A stretch of DNA of 64,000 nt. Source: Amoebophrya sp. A120 (Eukaryota > Protista > Dinoflagellata). Made by a program: the position numbers and the translations under genes. Under the pieces are notes generated by a model that was given only the letters and a program-made list of their open reading frames with translations, made no database searches and was not told the DNA's origin. The DNA lies in NCBI GenBank assembly GCA_905178155.1, contig CAJINV010000023.1, positions 393,610 through 457,609 of the forward strand. The letters are read 5' to 3'. Of the stretch, positions 19,501-59,622 are shown in pieces (within the stretch, counting starts at the first letter, position 1; each line of letters begins with the position of its first letter).

Positions 19501-21507
19501 AGTCGCAAATATGAATTCTCACAAAAGTCTCGTAGCCGCAGTTACTTACCACAAAATTTTGCATCTGCAACCTTGGTGACATTTTGAAAAAAGTGGACGT
19601 AGCGCGAATTTTTCTGCTCGACCGCGCAGCGGTCGCGGCCTTTGGTCGCGAGGTTCGTCGGGCCCCCGGCGGCCTTCCTATTCCGCCCGTGGTTCGTGCG
19701 ATTTCGCCTTTTGAAAGTGCTGCACGGGTTGAAGCGTTTGGGAAATTTTCCAGGGTTTCCGCCGCAAGATGTTTTTTGGCGATAGCTCGGGGGACGCGCA
19801 AAATTCTGGGCCCTTTTGTGGCCGCCGGCCTTTGGTCGCGAGGTTCGTCGGACCTCCGGTGGCCTTCCTATTCCGCCCGTGGTTCGTGCGATTTCGCCTT
19901 TTGAAAGTGCTGCACGGGTTGAAGCGTTTGGGAAATTTACCAGGATTTCCGCCACAAGATGTTTTTTGGCGATAGCTCGGGGGACACGCAAAAATCTGGG
20001 CCCTTTTGTGGCCGCCGGCCTTTGGTCGCGAGGTTCGTCGGGCCCACGGCGGCCTTCCTATTCCGCCCGTGGTTCGTGCGATTTCGCCTTTTGAAAGTGC
20101 TGCACGGGTTGAAGCGTTTGGGAAATTTACCAGGATTTCCGCCACAAGATGTTTTTTGGCGATAGCTCGGGGGACACGCAAAAATCTGGGCCCTTTTGTG
20201 GCCGCCGGCCTTTGGTCGCGAGGTTCGTCGGGCCCCCGGCGGCCTTCCTATTCCGCCCGTGGTTCTTGCGATTTCGCCTTTTGAAAGTGCTGCACGGGTT
20301 GAAGCGTTTGGGAAATTTTTTGGGTTTTCCACACGAGGCAGCCATTTGGACATAGGCTGGGGAAAAGCGAAAACCCGGCAGCTTTTGTGCTCTCGAGGCG
20401 TAAGTGTGGGGGCAGTGCTTTTGTAGAGGATGCCGAGGAGCAGGGGATCAAACTTCTCAGCCGAGGCAATCCCACCAGGTCCTCGATCTTGCGTTCATCG
20501 ACGCCGTATCAAATGCAAATATGTCTGGGTCTGGAAAGTTGTGATGCATGTCAGTGAATAGAAGTCGCACTGTACTGCAATACCAAGCATGCCAATAGAC
20601 TTTTCCGTGGCTCCGTGTTGCGTATTCCGCATGACAGACATCGTTTTTGCATGACAGACAAGAGGGCCTCTTGCTGGCCACGCAATACAGAGCTCAGTGT
20701 CATGCTAGACCGGCATGACAGATCTCGCATTCTTCCAAACCCAGACATATTTGCATTTGATACGCCAACGGGCCGAGCGGGCTGTTGCTTGCGCAAATCC
20801 GCTATCCTGTGCAAAAGTATCGTACTCGTATTGCAGTCATGCATTACAAATTTTTTTCTTAAGGGAAATCCGAATTACAAATGTCATTTCTCATGCTGAG
20901 GAAATTTGTAATGCATTCATACGAGCACGAGCCGACACTTTTGCAGTTCATATCCGCTGCTTGTTACCCATGATGAAGCAGCCAGATGGCGTGATTGCGG
21001 GCCACGACTTTGCGACAGGCGGCGTCTCATGGTCCAAGGAAGAATATTCTGCCGCTGTGGACATGGCCGTATGCATTGCAAATGTGTCTGGGTCTGGAAG
21101 GCTGCGGACTTGTTTTGTTGCCTTCAGATGCTAAAAAAACCTGTAAAATTGCATGTGCAGAAACAGCAACAGCAATCCAGTTGTTGCTGCGCGGCGAGGG
21201 CATTTGGATTTCAATTTCTCATGCAGCACGACAAACATAATTAAGAAGTTCTCGCGAAACCTGTGATGCTGGGGTAGACATCACGATCACAGACACCGTG
21301 CGCTAGTGCTATTTCGAAATGTGCACGACAAGCCTTCAACTCATTTCCAGACGCAGAGCTATTTCCAATGCATCGGCCAAGGCGCTTGACGAGTGGCATG
21401 CAGACGAGACAAACCCAAGAATAGCCCTCCGGACAAGGCCAGATTCGGTCTGGTGGCTCACGTTTGACCAGACAAATGAAGTTCTTGGCACGCCTATGCA
21501 AAAATGA
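16566..21507 (+). CDS. Class I SAM-dependent methyltransferase (Methyltransf_24-like) with N-terminal hydrophobic anchor; 8 introners; in-frame TAG at 18481
   Basis: Spliced motifs VMEVGVF|TGNT, YYAVDPY, LDLAFIDA, KQPDGVIAGHDF, DSVWW. Start codon uncertain. Confidence 0.75.
16769..16928. mobile_element. Introner family B
   Basis: Repeat ccgat. Confidence 0.85.
18166..18332. mobile_element. Introner family B
   Basis: Repeat gcggt. Confidence 0.85.
18522..18783. mobile_element. Introner family A
   Basis: Repeat gttct. Confidence 0.9.
19021..19179. mobile_element. Introner family B
   Basis: Repeat tcttc; splits methyltransferase motif I. Confidence 0.85.
19510..20447. mobile_element. Large intron/introner containing a 190-bp tandem array; right end degenerate
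   Basis: Starts tatgaatt; repeat gcaaa/tcaaa gives an in-frame join; no ATA end. Confidence 0.5.
19637..20318. repeat. 190-bp tandem repeat, about 3.6 copies
   Basis: ggcctttggtcgcgaggttcgtcg.. at 19637, 19827, 20017, 20207. Confidence 0.95.
20507..20762. mobile_element. Introner family A
   Basis: Repeat cgccg/cgcca. Confidence 0.85.
20803..20952. mobile_element. Introner family B
   Basis: Repeat tccgc. Confidence 0.85.
21070..21374. mobile_element. Introner family A, degenerate
   Basis: Repeat ggccg/ggcca. Confidence 0.75.
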
Positions 21508-22054: not shown

Positions 22055-25000
22055 ATGCGTGAAGAAGCTGCAGAAAAAAACAGCAGGAGCTCTTCTATTG
22101 TTGCGACTACCTGCGTATCAAATGTAGAAATGTTTGGGTCTGGAAGAGTGCAGACTTGTTATGCAGGTTTTCCATGACCCACGAGGTCTGGTATGTAGGG
22201 CATAGCATGACAGATTATGTGAGAGCTCTATCATTCCTATCCTGCATGAGAAACTGCCTCTCGATTACGTCAAAAGTGGCCAGCTTTTGGCAATCATGCA
22301 ACACAGATTTTTGAATTTGAATGATTCAGGTTTAGCATGACAAGTTAGATTCTTCCAGACCCAGACACTTTTGCATTTGATACTGCGTTCGCGGGTTTTT
22401 CCTGCTCTGGTTCCTGCTATTGTCTTTTCACTACTGGTATCAAATGCAAATATGTCTGGGTCTGGGAGATTGCGAGCTTTGTCATGCTAGTCTGGCATGA
22501 CTCAGAACTCTGTGTTGCATGGCCGCGAAGAGCTCCTCCTCCCTGTCATGCAGAAACGCAGTTTGTCATGCGGAGTACGCAACTCAGAACCATGAAAAAA
22601 ATTTGTCATGCTTGGCAGCGCATCATAGTGAGTTCACTATTCCCTTTCTTGCATCACAAGTTTCCAGACCCAGACATATTTGCAATGCATAACTGGCAGG
22701 CACTGCGGACAGAATGGTTTGTCCCGAAGGTGATCCTGTGCGCGCATTGGGCCGCCATGGAAACGGGAATACGAATCGGCTTCGAACTAAAGCATTGCAA
22801 ATGTAACGTAACTAGTACAAATTGCATTACAAGTTTTCTCAGAATTGAAAATGGAGTTTGTAATGCTGGTATACCTTGGGAAGCACATTTGTCATGCAAG
22901 TCTGCAATTAGTACGAGTAGGTACGATATTTTTGCAATGCATACGAAAAGTGTGGAAGGAAGGCGCTCGGTACCTACTCCGTGATGGCGACCAGCTTCAG
23001 ACGCATGGAGATCTCGACCTATATCAAAACGAAGCACCTCCCCTCCCCATATCGAAATGGAAATTTGTGATGCTGATTTGTGGCCACAAATCGTCTTTGT
23101 CTTGCCTATACTGTATCGGCAAGACAAAAGCGGCGGAGGAAAGTGGAATCTCGCAAGATATGATGTTAACAAAAATGTGCTCTCGACTTTGAATTTTTCT
23201 AGTTGAATAACAAGAATTCTACGAACAAAATGATGATTTTGAGTTGCTAATCTGAATGGTATGATGACTTTTTAGCATGAAAAAATTGACAACTGTACAA
23301 CATACACGCACAAATGCATTTTTTCGCACAGATTATTGCCGATATACGAGCGAAAACTGCCCTTTTGCCTGTTCTCTATCTGCACTACTGCAAACTGGTT
23401 TGTGATATGGAACTCCTAGCCTCCTACATAACCAAGGAACAGGCTCAGAAAATGCCGCCGAGCACTTTCTACAAACGAAATCAGAGTTTGTGTACGCAAG
23501 TCCAGCGTCAGACACTTCGTTTTGATATGGGGAGGAGGGATTTTTCCTCAGAATAACCTACCGTCCGGTTTCCCTAAGACTAAATGAGAAAACGTTTTCC
23601 GTCCACGATCACAACCATGCCTTCTTCGCGCCCCGCCGGGGAGGAGGAGCCGCGCTGTTCACCCTCACGGAAATTGGGGCGCCGCAGCTGCTATCAAGTG
23701 CAAAAATGTCTGGGTCTGGAAGATTGCGTAGGTTTGTCATGCAGGTTTTCCATGACGCACGCGGTCTGGCATGCACGGCCTAGCATGACAGGTTCTGTGA
23801 GATCTCTATCATGCCTTTCCTGCATGAGACACTGCCTCTAAACTTGTTCGGAAGTGGACCTCTTTTGGTAATCTATCACGCAACACAAATTTTTTCACGA
23901 TCCAGACATGGAATGACAAGTTACACTCTTCTAGACCCAGACATATTTGCAATGCATAGTTGCGAAGATGGTTCGGCGCGGAAATGGAAAAGGAAAGATT
24001 CCACCGACTTGAAAAGCCCGAGGCATATGAATTGCGCAAGTGTTTGGGTCTGGAACATTATGAGACTTTTCATGCGCGTTCTGTATGAGCCGTTACGTTT
24101 GTGATGCATGCCCTAGCATCACAGATTTTTTGACGGCTTCTTGATGCCTATTCCGCATGACAAATGCCCTCTCCGCGCAGCAAAAATTGCATTCCCTTTG
24201 CTGCTCATGCGATGCAAATTTTTTTGGAATCCAAATGCAGCATCACAAGTTACACCCTTCCAGACCCAGACATATTTGCAATGCATAAGGCACTGCGAAA
24301 GCTGATCGACTACGAGCTCGCGCGGCGCGGGACCCGCAACGGACGGCAACGATATCAAGTGCAAATATCTGTGGAGGTCTGGAAGGATGCAACTTGTGTT
24401 GGTGTCTTTGAATTCTGTAAAAAATCTGTATTGCATGACCAGCAAGAGGAGTCCAGTTTGTGCTACGCGGAGAGGACATTTTTCATGCGGGATAGGCATC
24501 AGGAAGGGTTCTAAACATCTGTGATGTTAGGGCATACATCACAGACGAGACAATCGTGCGCCGTGCAGAATGTGCATCACAAACCTCGCATCTTTCCAGG
24601 AGACCCAGTCCCAGACACATTTGCAACGCATAAAGGGCTGTTGCGAACGAAGAGAGTAGACGAGCAGTCGTCGCTCGACTTCCTGTATCCTGTGCAAAAG
24701 TATCGTACTCGTATTGCAATCGTGCATTACAAATCTTTTTCTTAAGGTGCATCTGCATTACAAATTTCCTGTCTCGTGCTGAGGATATTTGTAATGCATT
24801 TATACGAGTACGATACTTTTGCAGTTCATATCCTGGTCCCTCAGGACGCACGGGTGGTGGCGCAACGAACCTCGACCTCTGACAAGGAAGCACATCAAAA
24901 GACCTCGGCGTCGACAGCACCCTCCACCTGCTCGGTGTTTTCTTTCGGAATCAATTATCAATTCGAATTTGATGATTACTACCTGTTCCGGGAAAAGTGC

Positions 25001-36600: not shown

Positions 36601-39600
36601 TTACAACTTCAATTTGTAATGCTGGGGTAATTTGTAATGCAATTTATACTAGGACGATAATTTTGCATTGCATATTTTCCAAGAGGGACCACAACGCCGT
36701 GGCCGCCAAGGAAGCGCTGGAGCACATGGAAAAGAATCACCGCTGGATATGGATTGCAAAAGTGTCTGGGTCTGGAAGATAGATTGCAAATTGTCATGCT
36801 AAATCCGAATCATGCAAAAATCTGTGTTGCATGAGTGCCAAAAGCTGTCCACTTTCGACCAAATGGGGAGGGAGTTTCTCATGCGGGATGGGCATGAAAG
36901 AGACCTCACAGACTCTGTCATGCTAGGCTCCGCATCCCAGACCTCAAGGGTCATGGAAAACCTGCATGACAAGCTCACACTCTTCCAGACCCAGACACTT
37001 TTGCATTTCATACTGGATTACGCCCTACAACCTCCACGGCGTTTTGCTCCGACTGGTATCATATGGATTGCAAAAATGTCTGGGTCTGGAAGAGTGGAAC
37101 TTGTGATGCTAACTTTGGACTCTGAAAAATTCTGTATTGCATGACCAGCAAGAGGTGTCCAGTTTGTGCTACGCGTGGAGGGCATTTGTCATGCGGAATA
37201 GGCATCAGGAAGGCCTCTAAAAACCTGTGATGCTAGGACTTCCATGACAGACATTATGCGTCATGCAAAAACAGCATAACAAATGTCGGATTCTTCCAGA
37301 CCCAGACATTTTTACATTTGATATATTTACATTACCGTTTGAAGAGGAGAACGCGAAGATGGCTGCTCGAGCATCCCTATGAAATGCAAATATGTCTGGG
37401 TCTGGAAGGTTCCCAGATTTGTCATGCAGTTTTTCCAAGCTCCGCCAAGTCTGCAATGCAGGGCCCAGCATCACAGGTTCTGCAGCCCCTTAGTGATGCC
37501 TGTTCCGCATGAGAAATGCCCTCTCAATATGGCCAGAAGTGGGCACCTTTTGCAAGCCATGCAACACAGTTTTTTGCAGGATGCGGAACACGCATCACAA
37601 GTTCGGAGCCTTCCAGACATCCAGGGATATTTGCAATGCATAATCCCAAGAATACCTGCAACCGGACGGCGCGACTTTGATCCCGCAGCAGTGGACTTTG
37701 GAAGCCACCCGGCACTATGATTGGCCTGCCGCCGTCAATGACAAGATGTGCGCGGCTGTCTTGAGCATGGTGGACGAGCTCGGGTTCCAAATGGATCCGG
37801 TCGTCTGTGACCGCCGCCTGCTCACTGAGGCTACTTGTCACGTCGTTCGCACGTCTACAAGTTTGAACGGTCAGTGGGGTCCCGGAGCGGTAATCCACGC
37901 CATCCTTGAATTCCGAGCTCCTGCGAGGAGGAAGAAGCCGGGGTTTGATCATGCGGAAGTAGAGGAAGAGGACGTCGATGGTTTCAAGTATTCGGCTGTT
38001 TTGTCGTGGCTCGCGCAAAGCGATGAGATGCGCGTATCCCCGTTGTACGAGCTGACCACGTATGATCCCTACAAACGGTGCGTGCCGATTCACTACATGC
38101 GGCAACGGTTGGAGGAAGCATCTCTTGTATCTAGTACATCAACGTCTCGGCCTGATGATGCGCTAGTACAGCAGCAGCAACAACAAGAGCAAATGTTGGA
38201 GCGCTACATGGACTTCTCTCTGGAAGATTTCATATCGCTGGATCCTCTATCAAATGCAAATATGTCTGGGGCTGGAAGAATGCAAACTTCTGTTGCGAAT
38301 TTCGGATGAGACACCAATCTGTCATGCACGGACAGCGAAAGTCGCCCGCTTCGTGTCACCGGAAGCCGGGGAGATTTCTCCTTTGTGATGCGCACCCCCA
38401 TGTAAACATGACTACAGGCATTTTCAATCGTGTTTGGGAATTTGTAATGCTCTAAACCGGATAAGCAGATGGATTTGTAATGCGGCTGTCCTTGCTACCT
38501 TGCACTACCTTACGGACTGCAACCTGTCATGCGTGATTCCCACAACTCCTAGGTTTGTGTTGCAAAATCCCCATCTTCTTGACTCGCGGATGCTGGGGAC
38601 GCTTTTACTTAGGATATTGGGGCGCGTGTCGCCAAGGCTGTGCTGCTTTGCGTATACATCTTCCTTGGCGTATCAACTAGAAAAATTCCCCCACCCCATA
38701 TCGAAAACGAAATTTGTGATGCTGTATTTGAGTACACAAATCGACTTGTAATGCTAGAAGGCCAAGAGCCGCAGTCATGGCCTCGTTTGCAGGCAATTTG
38801 TCATGCTGTTTCCCACTTCCAGTTGCTTCCTGTCATGCTGAAGATGCAAGGATATGGGGAGGGGAGATTTTTCTTCTTGATATGGCGCGTCTATGATGTT
38901 GTCCGTGGAGATCACGAAGAGCGTATGCATTGCAAATATGCCTGGGTCTGGAAGAGGGTAACTTGTCATGCTACATCTGGATCGTGGAAAAATTTGTGTT
39001 GCATCATTGCCAAAAGAGGTCCACTTTTGAACAAGTTTACAGGCAGTTTCTCATGCAGAAAAGGCATGAAAAAGATCTCACAGAACCTATCATGCCAGGC
39101 CGTGCATGCCAGTCCGCGTGGGTCATGGAAAACCTGCATGACAAACCTGGCAATCTTCCAGACCCAAACATTTTTGCATTTGATAGAGCGCGAAAACCAA
39201 CAAAATTGAATACAGCACGCAACAGGCCGTCCTTATGAACTGCAAAAGTATCCTCGTACTCGTATAAATGCATTACAAATTTCCTCAGCATGAGAAATAA
39301 AATTTGTAATGCTGATTTGCCTTCAGAAAAAAATTTGTGATGCAAGACTTGCATTTATACGAGTGCGATGACAGAAAAAGTTGCCCGCTTCGTGTCACCG
39401 AAAGCCGGGGAGATTTCTCTACTCTATGACCTGCTCAAGCGTTAGTATCTCAAACCTTACAATAGAGTCTGGGTTTTGTGTTGCATGATGAGCATGACAG
39501 ACTGGCACAGCGTTCCACTTTCTGCAATACAAATTTCGGCAGATTCTAGCGCGGATGGGGACTCCGAGACTTGTCATGCGCAATCCTGTGGGAGTTGGCT

Positions 39601-40915
39601 AGATCATGATGCACCTCTTGCATCACAGATTTCCATATTCTACTGTAACGCTTCAGATTGTAACACCTGAGCAGGTTATATACTCTACCACCGGGTTTGA
39701 CCTACTTGGGGAAAATTCGTTTCTGTTTGACATCTACGAGTTATGAGAGTGTACAACTTGTCTCCCTCCCCCGGCCCCGCATTTGTGATGCAAAACCCAA
39801 AACCCAAGTGCTTCCCTGTGGCACTGTTTGCATGACAGATTCCGAAAGCCCAAACAGTACCACGCTAGGCGCGTGAATTTGTCATGCACAGGCGCCACGT
39901 GTGCTGGCAGCTGGCTGTTGTATTGCTGTTCATGCAATACAAATGAGGGGGAGGGGGGCTGTGCACTCTCATACGAATCTGAAGAAACGAAACTGACAAA
40001 AGTTGCCCGCTTCGTGTCACCGGAAGCCGGGGAGATTTCTCCTGAGGGTTAGATCTGTGATGCTACTGACCTACCTAAAACAGGATTACACTACGAGGAC
40101 AAACCTGTCATGCCAAACAACCAAAGCTGGTTGATTTGTCTAGCAGATTTCCCATCTTGACTCTGGTGTGGAGACGTTTTCAATTAGGATAGCACTTGAC
40201 TTCCCTGGCTTGTGGCTTTGCGCGCACCCGGTGGTGCCGTGTCTGTTCTTGGCGCAGGCTGTACGCATTGCAAATATTTCTGGAGTCCTGGATAAGGTTG
40301 CAACTTGTGATGCTGTCTCTGGATTCTAAAAAAATCTGTATTGCATGACCAGCAAGAAGAGTCCAGTTTGTGCTAAGTACGCGGTGAGGGCATTAATTTC
40401 TCATGCAGGATCATACGCATCGTCACGAAGCCTTCTAAAAAGCTGTGAAATCATGCTAGGTCATGCATTACAGGCATGATGGGTCATGAAAAATATGCAT
40501 GACAAGCTCCGCACTCTTCCAGACCCAGACATATTTGCATTTGATAGCCGCTGCTGTTGATTAACCAGAGGCTGCCCAACCATGCCAAAACTTCTGATGC
40601 GAATTTCAGATGACACACACCAATCACGGACAGAAAAAGTTGCCCGCTTCGTGTCACCGGAAGCCGGGGAGATTTCTCATGCGGATTAGGCATTGAGAAA
40701 CCGCCGCAAAAGCTGTGATGCTGGGGCTTGCATGCCAGACCTTTTTGGTTACAGGCATGCAAAAAAAGCATACCAAACCTCTGCATTCATCCAGACCCAG
40801 ACGTATTTGCACGTGATACCCCCAAGTGCGAGAATATTTTGCAACCGAGAGACGCCCAAGGAACTGGTTTATGTTCTGTAAGTGCAACTTACCTCCTGGT
40901 CCGCTGAAGGCGTGA
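33633..40915 (+). CDS. DUF229-like (alkaline phosphatase/sulfatase fold) protein; 9 introns, the last a 2.57-kb composite
   Basis: Spliced motifs PH|SVLLILLDAVSTRMALRGLPKT, HHVLGNGSISNQIPLVTG, VLLGDHG, EYRLPLL, RW|ITPYNLHGVL. Last exon 40824-40915 (..MFCKCNLPPGPLKA*) is in frame after removing 38248-40823. Confidence 0.75.
34167..34430. mobile_element. Introner family A (left end TAG)
   Basis: Repeat cgcac/cacac. Confidence 0.8.
34685..34946. mobile_element. Introner family A (right end ACA)
   Basis: Repeat gtatc/gtgtc. Confidence 0.85.
35012..35221. mobile_element. Introner family G (TIR core AAAAAAGTGTTACAGTTACAC)
   Basis: Repeat tgggg/tgggc. Confidence 0.85.
35677..35881. mobile_element. 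Highly degenerate introner
   Basis: tatt..aata ends; repeat gcatt/ccact; gives an in-frame join to ORF 35899. Confidence 0.5.
36519..36674. mobile_element. Introner family B
   Basis: Repeat ttttc. Confidence 0.85.
36748..37012. mobile_element. Introner family A
   Basis: Repeat ctgga. Confidence 0.9.
37062..37323. mobile_element. Introner family A
   Basis: Repeat tatca/tattt. Confidence 0.85.
37378..37642. mobile_element. Introner family A
   Basis: Repeat atccc. Confidence 0.85.
38671..38882. mobile_element. Introner family E (inside captured fragment 1)
   Basis: Repeat tggcg. Confidence 0.85.
38924..39185. mobile_element. Introner family A (inside captured fragment 1)
   Basis: Repeat gagcg. 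Confidence 0.85.
39425..39680. mobile_element. Introner family J (TIR core CTCAAACGTTACAAT), inside fragment 2
   Basis: Repeat tactc. Confidence 0.85.
39742..39973. mobile_element. Introner family I, inside fragment 2
   Basis: Repeat cgagt/cgaat. Confidence 0.85.
40192..40581 (+). pseudogene. Captured fragment paralogous to 44465-44564 of the next gene
   Basis: ALDFPGLWLCAHPVVPCLFLAQ..LLINQRLPN versus ALDFPDLWLCAHPVVPCLFLAQALLLINQKLPN. Confidence 0.8.
40262..40546. mobile_element. Introner family A inside fragment 3; site is empty in the paralog
   Basis: Repeat ggctg/gccgc versus a single ggcgc at 44530-44534. Confidence 0.8.
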
Positions 40916-44400: not shown

Positions 44401-46575
44401 GGCGGCCTCGTCCACAGGTAGTTCTACTGCGTCAACAACTTCATCAAGGAAAGAACAAGGCGCAGCACTTGACTTCCCTGACTTGTGGCTGTGCGCGCAC
44501 CCCGTGGTGCCTTGTCTGTTCTTGGCGCAGGCGCTGCTGTTGATCAACCAGAAGCTGCCGAACCCGCTGGAGAAGAAGCGGCTCTTCCTGCACTTCGGCG
44601 CGCAACTTTTGTACGGGGCTCCCGGCATCGCAAACGAGCACCTGCAGGGGTTGCACTTGCGGCTGGCCGGGTACAATAGCAACCAGGCGCTGGAATGGCT
44701 GATTTGGTCCCAGGACCTACTGTTCGAGAATTGCAACGGCTTCGGCAACCCGAAGGTCCTCGCGGCGAAGTCTTCGGAACAAGTGGCCCAAAAATTCCAG
44801 CACTCCTGGTTCGCATTTGCGTTCGACGGGCACCTGCGTCCCTGGTTCAGTGCGGTGTTCAAGGGCGCAGAGTCGTTGAAGGGAACCATTCTGCGCAAAG
44901 AACTGTTTGAAGAAGAGTGGACGACGGTGAAAACAGTCGTGGACGCGCACAACGAGACCCACGTGATCAAACCGGAGCAGGAAAAGAACCTTCAGAACGC
45001 CACCGCAGGGGATATTCTCCGCGAGTACGCAAGCTTGTTCCGGCTGCCCGATATCCAAGAAAAAAACTGTATTGTGTAGGTGTAAGTCTGCAATGCAAAG
45101 CATGCAACACAGATACACCTGTCATGCTGGCCAGCCGTGAAGTCCTGTTTTCCAATTCCAGTACTAGCTGCGCATGACAGGTTCTTTCTGTCATGCAGAG
45201 CGAATTTGTCATGCTGTCACTTTAAGACAGCTACACTCACACAGTTTTTTTCTTGCATATTCGAGGTGATCACCCCCATGGCACTTTACATTCCGCGGTC
45301 GCGAATATGGAACGCGAACGAAGCCCTGCTGGCGCGCACGGCTGAGAACAAACAGAAAGTGCTGATCGCCCGCAGCCGGTTTTCCAGTCTCTTCAACATC
45401 GTCGGCAACAGCTATTTCCAGGGGGTCAGAAGCATTTTAGAACGGGGCTTGCTACTGAACGAAGGCGATAAGGCGGTTGAGTCTTCTACTTCTAGTGCAA
45501 GTAGTCTGCAGGGAGCTGCTGCATCTTCATCTTCATCCCCGTCCGACTCCCCCGCCGGCGGCGCACATCAAAGTAGAACGGCTGCCGCACTCGACGCACC
45601 CAGAATCCAGGTGGACCATGTAGGGGTGAATTTATGCATTGTGAATATGTCTGGGTCTGGAAGGATGCAACTTCTGATGGTGTTTATTTCGGATTCTAAA
45701 CAGATCTGTGTTGCATGACCAGCAAGAGGAGTCGACTTTGTGTTACGAGGAGAGGGCATTTGTCGTGCAGTATCTATACCCGCCATCAGAAAGCCGCAAA
45801 AAAGCCTGTAATGCTAGGGCATGCATCAAAAACATCATGGGTCATGCAAAATGTGCGCGACAAGTTCCAGACCCAGATATATTTGCACTTGATAGAATTT
45901 GGATTTTTACACCTTCGAGTCCATCACGAAAGATTACGCACTTATCATTGATTCCGGTACGGAAATGATGGGGCGCGCGTTGGTGGAGTTTTACCGTATC
46001 GCGGTCCCGCTGTTGGTGCCGACGAAGCGATGGATGTTTCAGATGCACATGGAAGCGCCGTCCGGTGCCACCGTGTACGGCGTCAACGGGATCGACCCGG
46101 GACCCTGGTTCGAGTCCGGGTGGCAGTTGATGCCCGAGGTAGAGGCGCGGTCACGCATATGAATTGCAGCAAAAGCATCGTAAAACTAGTATAAATTGCA
46201 TGACAAATCTCCTCAGCATTTGTAGAAATGAAATTTGTAATTTGGAGTTACCTTACGAGACCGAGAGAGATTTGTAATGCATAAAAGCAATTAGTACGAG
46301 TGCGATACTTTTGCAGTGCATAGCGCAAGGTCGCCTACGATTACTTTCAGCACTCGGCCATCTACGAGCAGCTCCCCTATCTTTTCCGCTGGGACAGCAT
46401 TGTGCAACTCTGTATTCTTGTAGAGGAGCTGCTGGGCCCGCGAGGGGTTGCCAGCGACTACAAGTACCTGCGCGATGCTAGTCGGGGCATGATCGCACAC
46501 TACGAAACTTGGAGAGGCGTCAACAGTGTACTCCTTCGAGACACCCTGGATCAAGATTGGATGGGAATGCTTTGA
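41466..46575 (+). CDS. Uncharacterised protein, possibly glycosyltransferase-like; 10 introners
   Basis: Frame is preserved across 10 excisions. Segments PDLWLCAHP, LVEFYRIAVPLLVP, SAIYEQLPYLFRWDS; TGA at 46573-46575. The function call is weak. Confidence 0.7.
41908..42161. mobile_element. Introner family A
   Basis: Repeat cacct. Confidence 0.9.
42203..42468. mobile_element. Introner family A
   Basis: Repeat cgagc. Confidence 0.9.
42506..42769. mobile_element. Introner family A
   Basis: Repeat gcatt. Confidence 0.9.
42825..42977. mobile_element. Introner family B
   Basis: Repeat gacgt. Confidence 0.85.
43205..43417. mobile_element. Introner family G
   Basis: Repeat aaact. Confidence 0.85.
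43797..44037. mobile_element. Introner family F
   Basis: Repeat ctgtg. Confidence 0.85.
44202..44358. mobile_element. Introner family B
   Basis: Repeat acagt. Confidence 0.85.
45052..45259. mobile_element. Introner family D
   Basis: Repeat cccga/ttcga. Confidence 0.8.
45633..45894. mobile_element. Introner family A
   Basis: Repeat gaatt. Confidence 0.85.
46158..46322. mobile_element. Introner family B
   Basis: Repeat acgca/gcgca. Confidence 0.8.
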
Positions 46576-51233: not shown

Positions 51234-54200
51234 TGCCTTCGCTCTCGTCTTGCAGCAGCCTGCCTTCAAAGTGCGACCGTGCGGTGTCCGCTGGACTCAG
51301 CAAAGTCGCTTGCCTCACGATACTGCGCAGCGTAACTTTTCCACACTGCGGCCAGCTGGAAGGGGAAGAAGTAGCCAATGATCCGGCGTCTGCGACGGAG
51401 GATGAAAATATAAATGAGGCACTGCGTTCAAAAATATTCCCCGTGGCCTCTTCCATGATTGCTGTTGTGCATCCAGCACTTCGCCCGCAGGGCTCCTGTG
51501 CACCGGCCAGCGAGGAAAGTAACGGCGCCGCCTGCTATATGCAAGAAAAAACAAACTATGTGAGTGTAAGTCTGTGATGCAGAAAGTGCAAAACTGTTAC
51601 ACTTGTCATGCTGGGTCTGCGTCAGAGGCTACTTTCACACGTGTTTCCACGTGCTAGCTGCGCATGACAGGTTTTCCCTGCAATGCAAAGCGAGTTGTGA
51701 TGCTATTCTCGCTACAGAGTTACACTTACACAGTTTTTTCCTGGATATGCTATGATCAACATGTTGGGCGTGACGGTAGTATAGCTGTCCCGTGGCGCAT
51801 CGAGGTTTCTCCTCGTTCACCAAGTACCGACTTCTGGACAAGCCGTGGTCAATTACACAGCAGCCTGTTATCAGTGTTAAGATTGCAAAGCTTTCTCCGA
51901 ACAAGGGCTTTGAGAAACCAAACCGCGACGCTAGCGCTGGCACCTCTCTATCAACTGCAAAAATGTCTGGGTCTGGAACAAAGCAACTTGTCATGCTGTT
52001 TTTGGACTCGAAAAGAATTTGTATTGCATGACCAGCAAGAGGGGTACAATCTGTGCTACACGGACAGGGCATTTCTCACGCGGAAGGTGCATCTGAAAGC
52101 CCTCTAAAAGTCTGCGATGCTAGGTCATGCATTACAGGCATCAGGGGTCATGAGAAATATGCATGACAGACCTTGCATTCTTCCGGACCCAGACAACATT
52201 TTTGCATTTGATACTCAGTTCGAGCCTGCAGCTGTGCGGCCTACAATTACAACTCGTGGCAGCTTTTATGGTTTCCGCGCAGATGAAGTCGACGAGGGGG
52301 CCAATGAGAACGTGAAGATGCTGGTGAACGCTTCTACTACACAAAGTTTTAAAATAGGGCACAACTCCGTTGAAAATTATGCGCAACAACTCCTGCAGCC
52401 GGCTCCTCCTCTTTTCCTTACCAATCTGGCCACACCGCACCACTGGGCTCTCACGACCTTTTCACTGACGGAGTACTTCCCGTTTTTGTCGGTGGAGTAT
52501 TTTGTTCTGGTGGAACTAGTAGGCGCCATAGTAGAGCACGTGTGGTACCGTCCAGCTCATCCCTTCAAAATGGTGGAGGGATCATGCGAAGCACAGGAGG
52601 AAGACGCGACGGTGACGACGACGAGACGAGCCCCTGCTGGGCATGATGAGGTAGATCTTCAAGGAATAAATTTCACCGCCCGGCGTGGTCGGCCACGGCG
52701 GTCGGTTATCAAAAGCAAAAATCCCCCCTCCCCATATCGAAAAGGTATGTTTCCGAAAATTTGTGCTGCTGATTTGAGGTCTCAAATCGCATTTGTATTG
52801 CAAGAAGACAAGGGCAGAAGCTTCCGCCCCACTATGGAAGCGATTTGTCATGCTGCTGGGTCTAAAGGGGAGCCGCTTGCCATGCTGAACAACTAGACGC
52901 ATACGCCCCTACCTAGCCTGGGGATCTGACTGCAATGCTTTCCTGCAATACAAACCTGATTTGTGTACTCAAATCCAGCGTCAGACATTTCCTTTCGATA
53001 TGGGGAGGGGGGATTTTTCATTTTGATATCGGTAGCTTCTTACTCTTTCATCGCCCAGCAGCTACTTCGCTTGCTTATCGACTGTGCAAAAGTATCAGTT
53101 ACTCGTACTACTTGCAGACATGCATGACAAATCGCCTTCCTTAGCTAAAACAGCATTACAAATTTCGTCTGTCATGCAGCTAAGGAAATTTGTATTTATG
53201 CAATTTATACGTGGAAGTCCGATGCTTTTGCTTTTCATATTGCTTTTTCCAGAACAACTCAGCCAGGCAGAATTCGCTTGTTTCTACAGCGTATCAACTG
53301 TAAAAATGTCTGGGTCTGGAAGATTGCCAGGTTTGTCATGCATATTTCTCATGATCCACGATGCCTGTAATGCATGACCTAGCATCACAGACTTTTAGAG
53401 GGCTTCCTGATGCACCTTTCGCATGAGAAATGCCCTCTCCGTGTAACACAAACCGGACCTCTCTTTCTGGTCATGCAATACAAATTTTTTTAGAGTCCAA
53501 AATCAGCATGACAAGTTGCATTCTTCCAGACCCAGACATTTTTAAATTTGATACAGCGGCGAGGTGGCTCTTCAACAAGGTTCAACGAGGACTACAGACG
53601 TGGACAACGCTGCATATGGCGTTCTCAAATGTTACACTCTCGAACGGTTACATGGATTTGTCATGCAAAACTAGCTGAAGCCGCTACATAATCAAGCGGC
53701 TACGCATGACAAATTTCCGGAGGGCTAAAGAGCATGTAAATATGTGCGGAATTTGTAATGCAAAAGGAGCAATCTTCCCCCTTTCACTTTTGCCGTTCTT
53801 GCATTACAAAGTCGCGTACCTGTTGAGAATGTAACATTTCAGAACTCCATACTGCAGAGCCTTGGAGTTTGGCTCTTCAACAAGGTTCAACGAGGACTAC
53901 CGACGTGGATTTCATAAGACCCAACCAGGGAGACGCGACGGTGACGACGACGAGACGAGCCCCTGCTGGGCATGATGAGGTAGATCTTCAAGGAATAAAT
54001 TTCACCGCCCGGCGTGGTCGGCCACGGCGGTCGGTTATCAAAAGCAAAAATCCCCCCTCCCCATATCGAAAAGGTATGTTTCCGAAAATTTGTGCTGCTG
54101 ATTTGAGGTCTCAAATCGCATTTGTATTGCAAGAAGACAAGGGCAGAAGCTTCCGCCCCACTATGGAAGCGATTTGTCATGCTGCTGGGTCTAAAGGGGA

Positions 54201-56150
54201 GCCGCTTGCCATGCTGAACAACTAGACGCATACGCCCCTACCTAGCCTGGGGATCTGACTGCAATGCTTTCCTGCAATACAAACCTGATTTGTGTACTCA
54301 AATCCAGCGTCAGACATTTCCTTTCGATATGGGGAGGGGGGATTTTTCATTTTGATATCGGTAGCTTCTTACTCTTTCATCGCCCAGCAGCTACTTCGCT
54401 TGCTTATCGACTGTGCAAAAGTATCAGTTACTCGTACTACTTGCAGACATGCATGACAAATCGCCTTCCTTAGCTAAAACAGCATTACAAATTTCGTCTG
54501 TCATGCAGCTAAGGAAATTTGTATTTATGCAATTTATACGTAGAAGTCCGATGCTTTTGCTTTTCATATTGCTTTTTCCAGAACAACTCAGCCAGGCAGA
54601 ATTCGCTTGTTTCTACACAGGCGAGGTGGCTCTTCAACAAGGTTCAACGAGGACTACCGACGTGGACAACGCTGAAGTAGAGCCTTGGTATCCCAAGAAA
54701 AAAGTGTTACAACAGTTACTTACACATTGTGTTGCAGGCCAAGCAAGACAAACCAGCTCTGTCATGCCGGATACGCATAGAAGCCTCGTTTCATAGGTGT
54801 TTTCCCGTAGGATTTCTGCATGACAAGTTTTCTCTCTCATGCCGAGAAATTTGTGTTGCTGAATTGACTACAAATGTGTAACTGTAACACTTTTTTCCTG
54901 GCATACTTGGAGTTTGGTTATCCTTACCAACGAGGAGCAGCGGTTAGAACGGCTCAAAGTAGGTGGTACGTCAAAGCAAGTGCTGAAGAAGCGCGGCGCA
55001 CGACCAGAATTGTTGTTTTCAACAAGGCCACCTAGAGAGTCCGTCAAACGGGCGGTCGTGTATGAATTGCAAAAGCATCGTACTAGTATGAATCCCATGA
55101 CAAATTAGCGCAGCATGAGAAATACAATTTGTCATGCTGATTTACCTTGGGATGGAGATTTGTAATGCATGACTGCGATTACTACGAGTACGATACTTTT
55201 GCACAGGATATCGTGCTCGTGATGCCAAAACGACCGATGACATCAAAGGGTGTTATCAAATGCAAACATGTCTGGGTCTGGAAGGTTGCAACTTGTGATG
55301 CTGTCTTTGGAAGGTAAAAAAGATCTTTATTGCATGACCAGCGAGAGGAGTTCAGTTTGTGCTACGCGGAGTGGGCGTTTCTCATGCGGAATACGCATCA
55401 GAAGGCCCCTTATTAAAAATCTGTGATGCTAGGTAATGCATTACAGACATCCTGGGTCATGCAAAATATGCGTCGCAAACCTGGCAACCTTCCAGACCCA
55501 GACATTTTTACATTTGATAGGTGTGGAAGGTGAGCAAAAAAGGATCATGCGACGAGGAGGACACAACGACGGCACAAGAGGAACTCCTATCAAATGCAAA
55601 CATCTTCCCTGGATGTCTGGAAGGAGGTAAGGTCTGTCATGCTTGTCTGGCATGAGTAAAGAGTTTGTGATGCGTGTCCAAGAAAAGACGTTCTCGTTTG
55701 TCATGCAAAAACGCAGTTTGTCACGCGAGAAACGCAACACAAAGCCGCGCAAATATTTCTCATGCTTGGCTGTGCATTACTACAGAGCATTCATTATTCA
55801 CAGTTCAGCATTACAAGTTTCCAGACATCCAGGGATATTTGCAGTTGATAACTCCTAGCGATGACGTGCTTGCTGAAGACGAGGAAGAAGAAGCTCGACA
55901 AGCTCGCACTTTCTTTGCGAAGGAGCCGGGATTCCTTGCGACCTGGCACGTATCCTGTGCAAAAGTATCGCACTCGCATTGCAGTCATGCATTACAAATC
56001 TTTTTCTTAAGGTAAATCCGCATTGCAAATTTTATTGCTTATGCTGAGGAAATTTGTAATGCATTTATATATACGAGTGCGATACTTTTGCAGTTCATAG
56101 CACATCGCTAGTGGCGAAGATGATAACCGCAGCGGGGCGACGCCCAGCTG
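51233..56150 (+). CDS. Uncharacterised protein with an in-frame internal duplication; 3' end disrupted (possible pseudogene)
   Basis: Exons join in frame across 13 elements, including the duplicated block. The next element (56151) is truncated by a rearrangement. LFLTNLATPHHW is only weakly GT61-like. Confidence 0.5.
51538..51747. mobile_element. Introner family D
   Basis: Repeat tgcta. Confidence 0.85.
51949..52213. mobile_element. Introner family A
   Basis: Repeat ctctc/ctcag. Confidence 0.8.
52707..53028. mobile_element. Introner family E
   Basis: Repeat tcggt. Confidence 0.9.
53076..53239. mobile_element. Introner family B
   Basis: Repeat ttgct. Confidence 0.85.
53292..53553. mobile_element. 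Introner family A (site empty near 54620)
   Basis: Repeat cagcg. Confidence 0.9.
53615..53851. mobile_element. Introner family F (site empty near 54675)
   Basis: Repeat ctgca. Confidence 0.85.
54036..54357. mobile_element. Introner family E (duplicate of 52707-53028)
   Basis: Repeat tcggt. Confidence 0.9.
54405..54568. mobile_element. Introner family B (duplicate of 53076-53239)
   Basis: Repeat ttgct. Confidence 0.85.
54689..54905. mobile_element. Introner family G (site empty at 53861-53865)
   Basis: Repeat cttgg. Confidence 0.85.
55061..55210. mobile_element. Introner family B
   Basis: Repeat tcgtg. Confidence 0.9.
55254..55519. mobile_element. Introner family A
   Basis: Repeat ggtgt. 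Confidence 0.9.
55588..55850. mobile_element. Introner family A variant
   Basis: Repeat actcc. Confidence 0.85.
55951..56099. mobile_element. Introner family B
   Basis: Repeat gcacg/gcaca. Confidence 0.85.
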
Positions 56151-56282
56151 TATCGAATGCAACAGCATCGTACTAGAATAAATTGCATTACAAATGAAAT
56201 TTGTAATGCTGTTTTATTAACTTAGGAATGAGATTTGTCATGCATAACAGCAATTACTACGTGTACGATGCTTTTGCACAGG
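56151..56282. mobile_element. Introner family B missing its terminal ATA (rearrangement junction)
   Basis: ..cttttgcacagg runs directly into tggctcttcaacaagg. Confidence 0.75.
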
Positions 56283-56398
56283 TGGCTCTTCAACAAGGTT
56301 CAACGAGGACTACAGACGTGGATTTCATAAGACCCAACCAGGGAGACGCGACGGTGACGACGACGAGACGAGCCCCTGCTGGGCATGATTAGGGCGGG

Positions 56399-57217
56399 AA
56401 AATTGGCAAATCACATCAATTTTTTAGGCGCACCCTTGTGGGGGGTCGAAAGCCTTTCTTTGTGGAGGACTTAACTTCTTGAAAGTCGGCACGCGTAGCC
56501 CGTCCCTTCGTCTGCTCCACGAGAAACACAGTAGCTCGACTTTCGAAGGGCCTCAAGAACAAGACCTGAAAGATGCGGCAGCGCCTTCGTGCTGTGCATT
56601 GTCGCTCAGACCGCCCGGCGATGTTTGATAGGCCAGCCTATCGAAAAAAGGTCGGGCCGCCTCCGGGACTGGAGCCCGACAAGGCCCGGCGCTGGGAGAA
56701 GGAGACCCGGCAAGGGGGGGTGCTCAGGGGGGTGCGTTTTTGCCCCATTCCGCCGCCCCTTCCAAGCACCTCCTCTCGCCGATTTTTGTACGGCCTAAAG
56801 TAACCCCCTAAACCCCATTAGAAACTGCGGATTTGAGGTGTACGGAAATGGTAGCCTAGCGAAAGCCCCTGCCGACCCCCTTCACCCCCCCACTTCGACA
56901 CCCTCCGGAAGCACCCGACTGTTCGCAGGTCCGCATTCTCATTGCCCAGCTGTAGAGGGACAATAAGAAGATCGGTGGGCGCTTCCAGAATTGAATGCGG
57001 GGGCGGGGTTACTGCTGTCCGTTGCCGAACGACGCTTCCCGGAATAATTCTAGAAAAATACTACCCATGAATCCTGGAAAAGACTAGGCCTGGCGGGGGA
57101 CACTGGCGACGAAGAGCAGAGGCGCTGTGCATGACCAAGAGAAACAGGCGAAGTGCGTGCACCTCCACAAAACTACTTTCTTTTGCCCATAAAAATTTGA
57201 TGTGATTTGCCATTTTT
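56399..57217. mobile_element. MITE-like element with about 28-bp inverted repeats
   Basis: aaaattggcaaatcacatcaatttttta (left) versus taaaaatttgatgtgatttgccatttt (right); no clear TSD. Confidence 0.55.
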
Positions 57218-57298
57218 TGTTTCTACAGCGTATCCTGAGTAAATTTCCTGGGTTTAGGGTTTACAAATGTGTAACTGTAACACTTTTTTCCTGGCATA

Positions 57299-57852
57299 CT
57301 TGGAGTTTGGTTATCCTTACCAACGAGAACCAGCGGTTAGAACAGCTCAAAGTAGGTGGCACGTCAGAGCAAGTGCTGAACAAGCGCGGCACACGACCAG
57401 AATTGTTGTTTTCAAGGCCCCACAGAGAGTCCGTCAAACGGGTAGTCGTGCTAGGGATGCCAAAACAACCGTTGACATCGAAGGGAGTGGAAGGTGAGCA
57501 AAAAAGGATCATGCGACGAGGAGAAAGAACCACTTATGGCACAAGAGGAACTCCTAGCGATGACGTGCTTGCTGAGCAAGAGGAAGAAGAAGCTCGACAA
57601 GCTCGCACTTTCTTTGCGAAGGAGCCCGAATTCCTTGCGACCTGGCAAGTTGCTAGTGGCGAAGATGATAATCGCAGCGGCAGCACGACGCCCAGCTGGA
57701 CCCCATGCGGATTCGTTGCTGGACAAAGTACTAGAGACAGCATGGGAGGCGCTGCAGCGCTTTACGGCTTTGTGAATCGGCGCTGGCCTTTTGTCAATTT
57801 GATGGACAAAAAGCATCCCTGGCGCGTTCGAGAGGATTGCGTTGTTTCGTAA
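57299..57852 (+). pseudogene. Paralogous copy of the exons at 54906-56150 lacking five introners and extending to a stop codon
   Basis: Direct alignment: WSLVILTNE..RESVKR..GVEGEQKRIMRRG..DDVLAE..FFAKEP..ASGEDDNRSG is contiguous here and interrupted in the other copy. Confidence 0.7.
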
Positions 57853-57879: not shown

Positions 57880-59622
57880 AAAAAATATCGAGGGTGGTCG
57901 AGATATAATTGCGTCACGAGCACTAATTGTTTGATGCCGTTCTTGTGCACTAATTGGTTGATGCCTAGAGGGCAGTCCCAGCGGGGACAGTTTGCGTTTG
58001 CCGATGCTTCGCTTGAGTGTGGAGCATTGCCTAGAGGGCAGTCCCAGTGGGGACAGTTGGCGTTCGCCGAAGCTTCGCTAGAGTGCGAGGCATCTGCCGG
58101 AAGGGCAGTCCCAGCCTGCGGGGACAGGTTTGCGCATGCTCGCCATGAGGGCGGCCTCAACGGAGGCGGGGTCGCGGTGTTTTGCTACAAGGCCAATTCC
58201 CGCGGGGAGTAGTTTTGCGAGCATTTAATTTGGGGAAAGATGACATCTTGTGGCCGGGGTCGCCACTGTCCAAACGTCGTTTGGCGCATTATTCCCGTGG
58301 TCTTTGGACGATATCGATATGCCTTCTGTCCTCGATCTCGCCTTGCTTTGGGAACAGGGGTCGTTTGGCACTGGCGGTACCCAATCCGTTACCCTTGCGA
58401 ACTTGTTCCCATGCTTCGGCTGGGGTTCTTGGTGTCCAATTTGTTCGACCTCTGTTCCCTTAGCAGGGCGGGGCCGAGGATCCTCCTCGTCAATAATATT
58501 TTGTGGCGCGGCTATATATTGTTATTGCATCTTGTGGGGCGAAGATGGCTCTTCGGGATGGTTCCCTGGTGCTGGTGTTAGTTTAGTCTATGAATATGAC
58601 AGGGAGTCTGTATGAGCACAGTGTGCTCTCGTTATCGCGTCGATACAATCATCGGCGCACGGATTCTTACCGGCGGGAAGGGGCTCGCGCGCTAGCCTGT
58701 AGCATGCCCTGGGGGCTACGATAGCGCTCTCGTTCGCCTCGCGCTCCTTGGGGATGGCTTTGCTTGTCGCTAGCCACAGCAGGCATTGTTAGGTCTAGTG
58801 CCTCGAGTGAGACTTAGGCAACCGTGGAGGCGGAAGGGGGGCGCGAAGGGGCGGCTGTTCTTGCTCGGTCTTCTGTTGTTTGTCAGTATCGGGGAGTAAG
58901 TAGTGCCCTTTTTGCGGGCTTCTTTGGGTTATTGTTTGGCTTGACTCGCTGGGGACGCACTACCGGGGATGGCCCCCTGCTCTTTCAGTTTTTCCGCCTC
59001 TGCGTCCAGTTGCTACAGCTTCTACCTTTGGTCCGTTATACGGGGCAGTCCCACCCCGCGGGCAGGGACGTTCTCGAAGATGTTACTCGCGTTTGCTGGC
59101 TGGCGCTCGGACGCTTTTGCGTTTCTTGTGTCACGAAGACCTCTGCAGGCGCTGGGGCGGTTTGTGCCCAGGGCAGCTACTTTTCAAGTTTTGCGGGCTT
59201 TGAGGCTTTGCTGTGTTTACTATGGCGGAATTGGTGTCGTCGCTATGTTGCCGGTTCCGAATGTCATGATCTTTTCCGCGGTTTCATGGAGCTCGCCTGC
59301 CGTGCAGGCGATGGATTGCTCCGGAGTGGTGGCTCTGGGGCAAGTGGGGCTGGGCTGGCGCTCCTCTCCCCCCATTCAACCACCTGCGGTGGGGTTCTGG
59401 GGGGTCTTGCCTGTTGGCCTGGTGGTGGTGGAGTGGGTCGCTCCCTGCTGCGGAAGCGAGGGCTCGACCCGCTCGACCCAGCCCCAATGGCGCCGTCCAA
59501 CGGGTTACTCGGGTTGGTTTGGCGCATAGGATAACAGATGGAAGGAACGCAACGAAAAAATATCGAGGGTGTCCGAGATATAATTGCGTCACGAGCACTA
59601 ATTGTTTGATGCCGTTCTTGTG
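57880..59622. repeat. 68-bp direct repeats (57880-57947, 59555-59622) flanking a 1.6-kb GC-rich insert
   Basis: aaaaaatatcgagggtg..cgagatataattgcgtcacgagcactaattgtttgatgccgttcttgtg, 2 mismatches. Confidence 0.85.

What the first reader, a model, noticed from the sequence alone, without database searches (positions are those of the whole stretch)
38248..40818. Introner that serially captured three foreign genomic fragments at one fixed site, forming a repeat-spacer array
Seen: one family-A element is split into a left arm (to 38380) and a right arm (from 40582). Between them lie three unrelated fragments (38381-39369, 39420-39994, 40042-40581). Each begins right after the same 10-mer GAGATTTCTC and is followed by a re-copy of the preceding about 47-97 bp. 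Fragments hold exon pieces of other genes with intact and broken introners, so they derive from DNA or unspliced RNA. Removing the whole 2.57 kb still gives an in-frame last exon ending in a CxC motif. Inference: a site-specific nick or cut with templated capture and long target duplication, tolerated because the host is spliced out. This would be a sequence-acquiring, Pack-like introner.
Basis: partly seen in the sequence, partly recalled or inferred. Interest (0 to 1): 0.85.

Follow-up and report, generated by a model that had tools for sequence, protein, structure and literature searches.

The report
Transposon intron holding three copied fragments
Inside one transposon-derived intron of a marine parasite, three stretches of other genes sit between four copies of the same short sequence that all end at the same base, likely the scar of one DNA-repair episode that left that base three times rather than an element that actively collects DNA.

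Summary
The structure is real. One TAT…ATA introner of Amoebophrya sp. A120 is split, and three genomic fragments (989, 578, 540 bp) alternate with four copies of its own interior that end at one base. Public contigs bridge 2 of 7 junctions outright; 3 more have weaker support. Fragment 3 is an 8%-diverged, selection-shaped copy of the gene 3.9 kb downstream, with two extra introners and no second copy found. Best reading: one gap-repair episode copying from a diverged second copy of this region, with three excursions from one stall or nick. Only 1 of 37 paired family copies is split and the composite is single-copy, so no family-wide capture is shown. Contig geometry fits splicing of the whole 2.58 kb; the right half also persists as processed RNA. 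Closest kinds: single-copy Pack-TIRs and cycles of templated insertion.

The parts
37643..38247 (+). Penultimate exon of the host gene (DUF229 protein)
   Evidence: RNA-like contigs X3 record 17 and X5 record 23; 100% match to P0002; PF02995 E=1.8e-10
38248..38380 (+). Left arm of the split family-A introner; 38280-38380 is repeat T1
   Evidence: TIR match; X1 contig 38256-38373 at single-copy depth; 6 substitutions in 93 aligned bases plus 3 indels against T4
38381..39369 (+). Fragment F1: right part of an introner (to 38616), three short exons (38617-38670, 38888-38923, 39191-39233), two complete introners (38671-38882, 38924-39185), left part of a fourth (39234-39369)
   Evidence: donor shown by a 3461-nt RNA-like contig that starts on 38571-38665 (1 difference), a loose end running on in frame after 39233, and depth 101 at 39157-39252 in X1
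39370..39419 (+). Repeat T2, 50 bp
   Evidence: 1/50 differences from T4, 4/50 from T1
39420..39997 (+). Fragment F2: two complete introners (39425-39680, 39742-39973) and exon pieces (39686-39741, 39979-39997); donor not found
   Evidence: open frame across the introners on + and on one - frame; no match of the exon pieces in the window above shuffles
39998..40041 (+). Repeat T3, 44 bp
   Evidence: 0/44 differences from T4, 2/44 from T1; F2|T3 bridged by X1 record 6
40042..40581 (+). Fragment F3: right part of an introner (to 40191), exon 40192-40260, complete family-A introner 40262-40546, exon 40551-40581; diverged copy of the neighbouring gene
   Evidence: 8 differences in 99 coding bases against 44465-44563, 6 synonymous and 2 not; nested introner spliced out in X3 record 13, 40260 to 40551
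40582..40678 (+). Repeat T4, 97 bp, continuous with the right arm
   Evidence: F3|T4 bridged by X3 record 13
40679..40818 (+). Right arm of the split introner, followed by the right target duplication 40819-40823
   Evidence: X3 record 14 and X5 record 25, both 40649-40852
40824..40915 (+). Predicted last exon of the host gene, in frame after removal of 38248-40823
   Evidence: joint inferred from contig ends at 38246+30 letters, 38247, 40823 and 40852 reproduced by simulation
44465..44563 (+). Homologous stretch of the downstream gene (P0001), lacking both introners that F3 carries

Best explanation
The array is likely the scar of one replication-repair episode inside an old introner, in which the growing strand likely left its template three times at the same base, copied 0.5-1 kb of genomic DNA from elsewhere each time, and came back 50, 44 and 97 bp behind that base, running through only on the third return. 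Shown: the anatomy, the fixed departure base, the genomic nature of the fragments, a near-identical expressed donor for F1, the homology of F3 to the gene 3.9 kb downstream, single-copy depth. Inferred: the template for T2, T3, T4, the right arm and F3 was a second copy of this region, about 7-8% diverged and with different introners (a homologous chromosome from a divergent mate, or a duplicate since lost); the switch from the resident copy (T1) to it fell in the 37-bp identical tract that ends at the fixed base; the fixed base marks a nick, broken end or block at the element's internal TTTSTC|ATGC motif. Inferred: the insertion is tolerated because the two outer arms still define an intron, though only part of the RNA uses that joint.
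For: T2 and T3 against T4 1/94 differences, T1 against T4 6/93 plus 3 indels; F1 against donor 3/324, so T1/T2 is older than F1's capture (p=0.007). F3 against the neighbour gene: 6 synonymous, 2 non-synonymous changes in 33 codons (P=0.004 if both copies were neutral, 0.049 if one was), so its source was probably a working copy. No second copy of that gene: extra X1/X2 depth at 44464-44824 equals about 92-94 letters, which F3 itself supplies; protein searches return only P0001 as a close match. All 5 complete nested introners are retained, which points to DNA templates. 1 of 37 paired family-A copies is split. A second patchwork 12 kb away joins gene versions 7.9% apart that differ by four introners. 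Gap filling of TIR elements with nearby DNA and cycles that re-replicate host sequence are described (PMC8277862; PMC7025897); a sexual spore type is reported for Amoebophrya (abstract).
Against: The diverged second copy was not seen; its existence is deduced. Synonymous divergence of F3 (6/25 sites) is higher than T1/T4 divergence (6/93; p=0.019), so equal age needs constraint on introner sequence or small-number noise. T2+T3 against T4 (1/94) versus T1 against T4 (6/93) is not significant alone (p=0.065). No microhomology is visible at the two return junctions that can be judged by proxy (F1|T2, F3|T4). Why the same base three times is not explained by any search; the hairpin before it is weak (z -1.7, 14 of 200 shuffles as good). 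Gene flow between Amoebophrya ribotypes is reported as low, if any (PMC7018713). The 3/324 figure assumes that X1 record 4 and X3 record 10 are the donor.
Confidence: 0.5

Rival explanations
1. Two stages at a recurrently fragile base. An old event (a gap-filling capture from the neighbour gene, or a 6.3-kb tandem duplication whose junction is F3|T4) made T1 and T4; a recent event added F1, T2, F2 and T3, using T4 as template.
For: T1/T4 (6/93) and F3/neighbour (8/99) are about equally diverged; needs no second haplotype; capture from within 5 kb is the commonest Pack-TIR pattern; local duplications with different introner content exist in the window.
Against: F3 would have been neutral since the old event, yet 6 of 8 changes are synonymous (P=0.049); the neighbour gene must have lost, or F3 gained, two introners; the old junction must by chance lie within 97 bp of the later break, or the same base must break twice.
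Confidence: 0.25
2. Reverse-transcriptase template jumping: an RT copied sense RNA pieces (pre-mRNA fragments of three genes and 44-50 nt pieces of the host intron with one fixed 3' end) end to end into a break.
For: F1 and F3 are in sense orientation and F2 has an open + frame; junctions look blunt; non-LTR-derived introners are reported in this strain (PMC12130899); an insertion with a 68-bp direct repeat lies at 57880-59622.
Against: 5 of 5 complete nested introners are retained although one is shown spliced in RNA and unspliced RNA over another has depth 5.7; no poly(A) in the sequence; does not explain why T1 differs from T2-T4 or why F3's source is missing.
Confidence: 0.1
3. One reading: a site-specific nuclease or transposase repeatedly cuts this motif and the element acquires DNA serially with long target duplication, as a property of the family.
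For: Three departures at one base within a motif conserved across the family; the base lies in CATG, the 4-bp duplication flanking another insertion in an introner at 4095-5229.
Against: Repeat variants do not follow either order of serial duplication; 36 of 37 paired copies are unsplit; composite is single-copy; CATG occurs every 60 bp in these elements.
Confidence: 0.08
4. Mis-assembly or mis-ordering: fragments joined through the shared 37-bp core.
For: No listed contig spans the array; F1|T2 and T2|F2 were not among the rows shown; 31-mer contigs cannot phase T1 with F1; X1 may be the source sample.
Against: Two junctions bridged, one of them in a different study's RNA-like run, two more crossed with 30 letters, all at single-copy or gene-level depth; the core is unique to this locus at 98% (bin depth 45 at 38294-38390), so all four copies must lie in one path; RNA covers T3-F3-T4-right arm in the assembled order.
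Confidence: 0.05

Closest known systems
Single-copy Pack-TIRs made by transposition-independent gap filling (Tan et al. 2021, PMC8277862; passages read)
   Same: Non-transposon DNA between the two arms of one TIR element, internal breakpoint, single copy, a related gene within 5 kb, often transcribed and altering host RNA by intron retention.
   Different: Three fragments, not one; element sequence is re-copied at each return instead of a small gap being left; one departure base used three times; the host element is a spliced intron; no microhomology seen where it could be judged; the nearby gene is 8% diverged, not the direct parent.
Cycles of templated insertions (Li et al. 2020, PMC7025897; passages read)
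   Same: Copied templates strung into one locus, with return behind the departure point so that host sequence is re-replicated; donor gains a copy (F1).
   Different: Here three separate cycles with a return after each fragment, back-steps of 44-97 bp, in a germ-line protist genome; the passages read describe somatic cancer events and no repeated departure base.
Amoebophrya A120 introner elements (Farhat et al. 2021, PMC7789003; passages and section 11 read)
   Same: Inverted repeats that start with TAT, 3-5 nt direct repeats, non-canonical ends, about 240-260 nt, many families.
   Different: This copy is 2571 bp and carries exon pieces of three other genes; the passages read mention no cargo.
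CRISPR repeat-spacer arrays (recalled, no call)
   Same: Alternation of a repeat with unrelated captured DNA.
   Different: Repeat length varies (101, 50, 44, 97), spacers are 0.5-1 kb, repeat variants do not follow stepwise duplication, and one locus only.

Membership tests
Amoebophrya A120 introner element | Terminal inverted repeats starting with TAT | tested here: met
   definition
Amoebophrya A120 introner element | 3-5 nt direct repeat at the borders | tested here: met
   5-bp repeat exact in 60 of 76 auto-detected elements (the detector favours good matches); 3 of 5 positions for the split element
Amoebophrya A120 introner element | Removed from the mRNA | tested here: inconclusive
   Shown for the nested element in F3; for the whole array inferred from contig ends that a simulation reproduces; the joint row itself was not displayed and the deposited protein P0002 reads into the left arm
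Single-copy Pack-TIR (gap filling) | Non-TE sequence between the two arms of one TIR element | tested here: met
   arms rebuild a 273-bp element; exon pieces inside
Single-copy Pack-TIR (gap filling) | Parental copy present in the genome | tested here: inconclusive
   present for F1; only a diverged homolog for F3; not found for F2; no whole genome held
Single-copy Pack-TIR (gap filling) | Single copy, not transposed as a composite | tested here: met
   junction contig depth 51.1 and bin depth 45.0 against 44.9 for flanks in X1
Single-copy Pack-TIR (gap filling) | Small gap in the element between the two breakpoints | tested here: not met
   no element base is lost at the site; 50, 44 and 97 bp are re-copied
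Single-copy Pack-TIR (gap filling) | Microhomology at one or both breakpoints (seen in 68% of published cases) | tested here: inconclusive
   none visible at F1|T2 and F3|T4 using family copies and the neighbour gene as proxies; true donor flanks not available
Single-copy Pack-TIR (gap filling) | Empty element at the orthologous site in relatives | not testable with these tools
   no other strain holding the stretch was listed; X9 and X10 laid 0 reads
Cycle of templated insertions | String returns to the host locus and re-replicates a segment | tested here: met
   three returns, T2, T3, T4
Cycle of templated insertions | Copy, not cut: donor keeps its segment | tested here: met
   met for F1 only: depth 101.2 at 39157-39252 and an expressed 3461-nt donor contig
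Cycle of templated insertions | All segments acquired in one event | tested here: inconclusive
   T2, T3, T4 and F1/donor all about 1% apart, but T1 and F3 are 7-8% from their partners
Serial target-site-duplicating (CRISPR-like) acquisition | Each new repeat is a copy of the adjacent older repeat | tested here: not met
   T2 and T3 carry T4's variants, T1 differs; T4 is longer than T3
Serial target-site-duplicating (CRISPR-like) acquisition | Constant repeat length | tested here: not met
   101, 50, 44, 97 bp
Serial target-site-duplicating (CRISPR-like) acquisition | Dedicated integrase or nuclease | not tested
   no genome held; the window was not scanned for one
Site-specific non-LTR retrotransposition | Insert copied from processed RNA (introns absent, 3' tail) | tested here: not met
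   5 of 5 complete nested introners retained, no tail
Helitron-type capture | Strong hairpin about 11 nt before a CTRR end (definition recalled) | tested here: not met
   4-bp stem at that distance, z -1.7; repeats end in TCTC

The most novel reading that the evidence does not exclude
The conserved internal motif of these introners is a programmed nick or stall site, set by a transposase or a dedicated nuclease or reverse transcriptase, and arrival at it launches copying of foreign DNA with a short back-step. Introners across the genome would then build repeat-spacer arrays that sample other genes and divergent mates' chromosomes, shelter the cargo inside a spliced intron, and release it as a processed RNA.
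Probability: 0.1. Interest if true: 0.85.

Novelty: new variant of a known kind. Interest (0 to 1): 0.45.

Why it matters
It shows at base resolution how a non-autonomous TIR element can gain gene fragments without moving, and that a non-canonical, hairpin-defined intron likely survives a tenfold enlargement with nested and broken elements inside. Three departures from one base constrain repair models more tightly than ordinary templated insertions do. If the template was a 7-8% diverged homolog with different introners, the locus records outcrossing between divergent Amoebophrya lineages and introner presence-absence polymorphism, both testable in existing isolate sequencing. It also gives a natural test of how these introns pair their ends: one RNA appears to use the outer arms, another keeps the right arm and splices only the inner element. 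It is one locus; no new machinery is shown.

Tried and rejected
Whole-genome donor search: no genome held. Exon pieces of F1 and F2 against the rest of the window: scores within those of 10 shuffles each. Protein search for a paralog of the neighbour gene: only P0001 among 3061 candidates of 400-2000 aa, none among 70 shorter candidates, and no hit above 40% identity besides itself among 5 in the 50% representatives; the tools call such blanks weak evidence. No RNA holder on record was listed; X3 and X5 are labelled 'RNA?' and I treat them as RNA because their contigs skip introns. Raw-read runs X9 and X10 laid 0 reads at 98%: no test. Joint tables were filled by family copies, so the 38247-40824 joint was not displayed. 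Hairpin as cause of the fixed base: weak, and a control copy scored alike (z -1.85). One search's set of intact copies was chosen by length and cannot count split ones, so ends were paired again without a length filter (4 left-end hits unpaired, 2 of them elements whose diverged right ends are seen). Earlier scan notes: nothing by place, words or sequence. Pfam on two ORFs inside the 68-bp-repeat insertion: no family. The yeast Dna2 insertion paper is recalled only; it was not in the listing and is not used. PMC13317346 passages added nothing. The family of F1's donor (a nucleotide-sugar-transporter-like membrane protein) and a conserved terminal CxC in DUF229 proteins are recalled impressions, not tested. 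No supplements were read; those of PMC7789003 list introner families and may bear on the family assignment.
Full report
Setting. Two exons of the window translate to proteins identical to records named Amoebophrya sp. A120. The window is packed with short elements that begin TAT, end ATA and carry 5-bp direct repeats: a detector found 79 candidates, of which I dropped 3 as false or mis-bounded, and 60 of the remaining 76 have an exact 5-bp repeat. This matches the introner elements described for that strain (PMC7789003, passages and section 11). No whole genome is held.

Observation. One family-A element is split. Left arm 38248-38380 and right arm 40679-40818 rebuild a 273-bp element. Between them lie F1 (38381-39369), T2 (39370-39419), F2 (39420-39997), T3 (39998-40041), F3 (40042-40581) and T4 (40582-40678). 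T2, T3 and T4 are copies of the element's interior ending at the same base as the left arm (T1); the terminal 10-mer occurs at those 4 places only. The fragments hold exon pieces, 5 complete introners and 3 truncated ones. Pairing family-A ends without a length filter gives 37 pairs, 36 spaced 182-273 bp and one 2559 bp. The break lies in a motif shared by the 35 family-A rows aligned.

Is it real DNA? Contigs of public runs were laid twice. In the DNA-like run X1, which may be the source sample, one contig bridges F2|T3 (39931-40034, depth 51.1, no differences; flanks 44.9), and the residual depth in bin 38294-38390 equals a 40-letter piece at depth 44, as expected for T1|F1. In the RNA-like run X3, from another study code, one contig bridges F3|T4 and two cross T3|F3 and T4|right arm with 30 letters on the short side. 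F1|T2 and T2|F2 were not among the 16 of 2371 pieces shown. No contig spans the array, and order is not proven. The published assembly of this strain cut chimeric junctions with Nanopore reads; whether the window derives from it was not checked.

Donors. F1 has a donor: a 3461-nt RNA-like contig starts on 38571-38665 with 1 difference, a loose end continues in frame after 39233, and X1 depth at 39157-39252 is 101. Summing X1 records 4 and 5 and X3 record 10 gives 3 differences in 324 letters; record 3 (0/98) was left out because it may be the array's own copy. F3's exons match the next gene downstream, 3.9 kb away, with 8 differences in 99 coding bases, 6 synonymous; that gene lacks both introners that F3 carries. 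No longer second copy shows in DNA depth at 90% identity (extra cover about 92-94 letters in a 361-bp bin) or in three protein searches. F2's donor was not found.

Repeat variants. T2 against T4 1/50, T3 against T4 0/44, T1 against T2 4/50, T1 against T4 6/93 plus three indels. If T1 and T2 were a target duplication made when F1 arrived, they should be as alike as F1 and its donor; they are not (p=0.007). Serial growth from the right fails because T4 carries 97 bp of original element sequence and T3 only 44. So the simple serial-duplication model fails in both directions. Two results weigh against over-reading: 1/94 against 6/93 is not significant alone (p=0.065), and F3's synonymous divergence exceeds T1/T4 divergence (p=0.019).

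RNA. The deposited model P0002 reads into the left arm and stops, which speaks against the splice. The contigs speak for it: X5's host contig aligns to 38246 with 30 letters left over, X5 and X3 each have a 204-nt contig 40649-40852, X3's next contig starts at 40823 and its host contig ends at 38247. A 31-mer simulation with a 38247-40824 joint reproduces each of these ends (the 40924 end was set by me), and bin arithmetic leaves a 30-letter piece at depth about 12 there. The joint row itself was not displayed, so the splice is inferred. It gives an in-frame last exon of 30 residues with CxC nine residues before the stop. X3 has no cover at 38294-38487, yet T3, F3, T4 and the right arm are covered at depth 25-34 against 24 for host exons, with F3's nested introner spliced out in frame. 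The array is thus partly kept in a processed RNA, which in my reconstruction has no long open frame; where it starts is unknown.

Mechanism. Shown: fixed departure base, back-steps of 50, 44 and 97 bp, genomic fragments, a retained donor, single copy. Inferred: one repair or replication episode with three excursions; a template that was a second, 7-8% diverged copy of the region, since T2-T4 and F3 both differ from the resident T1 and neighbour gene by that amount and F3's source looks to have been under selection; a homology switch in the 37-bp identical tract; a nick, broken end or block at the motif. A sexual spore type is reported (bioRxiv 10.1101/2025.04.10.648098, abstract only), but gene flow between ribotypes is called low, if any (PMC7018713, passages), so a lost duplicate is as possible as a mate's chromosome. 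A second patchwork at 52.6-57.7 kb joins versions of one gene that are 7.9% apart and differ by four introners, so such mosaics are not confined to this locus. I put this reading at 0.5, a two-stage history at 0.25, RT template jumping at 0.1, family-wide site-specific capture at 0.08 and mis-assembly at 0.05.

Comparison. It works like a single-copy Pack-TIR made by gap filling (PMC8277862, passages) and like cycles of templated insertion (PMC7025897, passages). It fails one Pack-TIR feature (a gap in the element; here sequence is re-copied), so I file it as a variant. It fails the tests for CRISPR-like acquisition, retrotransposition and Helitron capture. In the listings of five searches (titles and abstract starts only) I saw no report of an introner with cargo or of repeated departure from one base; PMC12130899 has no occurrence of 'captured', 'cargo' or 'nested'. 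The library lacks most subscription journals, so this is a limited claim.

Verdict. Real and unusual, partly misread. A well-supported one-locus repair scar with a striking repeat-spacer look, a likely diverged template and mixed splicing. Interest 0.45; new variant of a known kind. A genome-wide breakpoint scan and isolate genotyping would decide whether the site-specific reading survives.

Noticed in passing
window 52602-57705: Second patchwork: a 687-bp near-exact duplication (52602-53288 / 53931-54617), a novel junction that itself occurs twice (53870-53976 / 56283-56389), and gene versions that differ in introner content; 57299-57705 is 7.9% diverged from the spliced 54906-56150 and lacks its four introners.
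   Followed up: partly
window 57880-59622: A 1.6-kb insertion between 68-bp direct repeats (97% alike), starting with an 18-nt re-copy of the repeat's interior and short tandem units; two ORFs inside have no Pfam hit. Possibly another long-back-step insertion or a retroelement remnant.
   Followed up: partly
window 4047-5345: A short introner split by a 1.1-kb insert with CAG...CTG ends flanked by CATG, probably a nested DNA transposon.
   Followed up: partly
window 23022-23553: An introner about 200 bp longer than its relatives, with an A-rich interior of some 380 bp that has no match in the window's element library.
   Followed up: no
window 39998-40852: The right half of the array is covered by RNA-like contigs at or above host-exon depth in two runs of one sample (25.9 against 24.4 in X3; 13.3 against 7.8 in X5), with the nested introner spliced out; contig depth is a poor measure of level.
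   Followed up: partly
window 38248-38307: The deposited protein P0002 ends by reading into the left arm; contig geometry suggests the true C-terminus comes from 40824-40915.
   Followed up: partly
window 57231-57298: A short element-like stretch whose left part holds telomere-like TTTAGGG units (label recalled) joined to the right end of another introner family; a loose end of an X3 contig reads as its reverse complement.
   Followed up: no
window 19636-20330, 8936-12674, 1-131: Tandem repeats: a 190-bp unit in about 3.6 copies, a 3.7-kb repetitive block, and a 70-bp unit at the window start.
   Followed up: no
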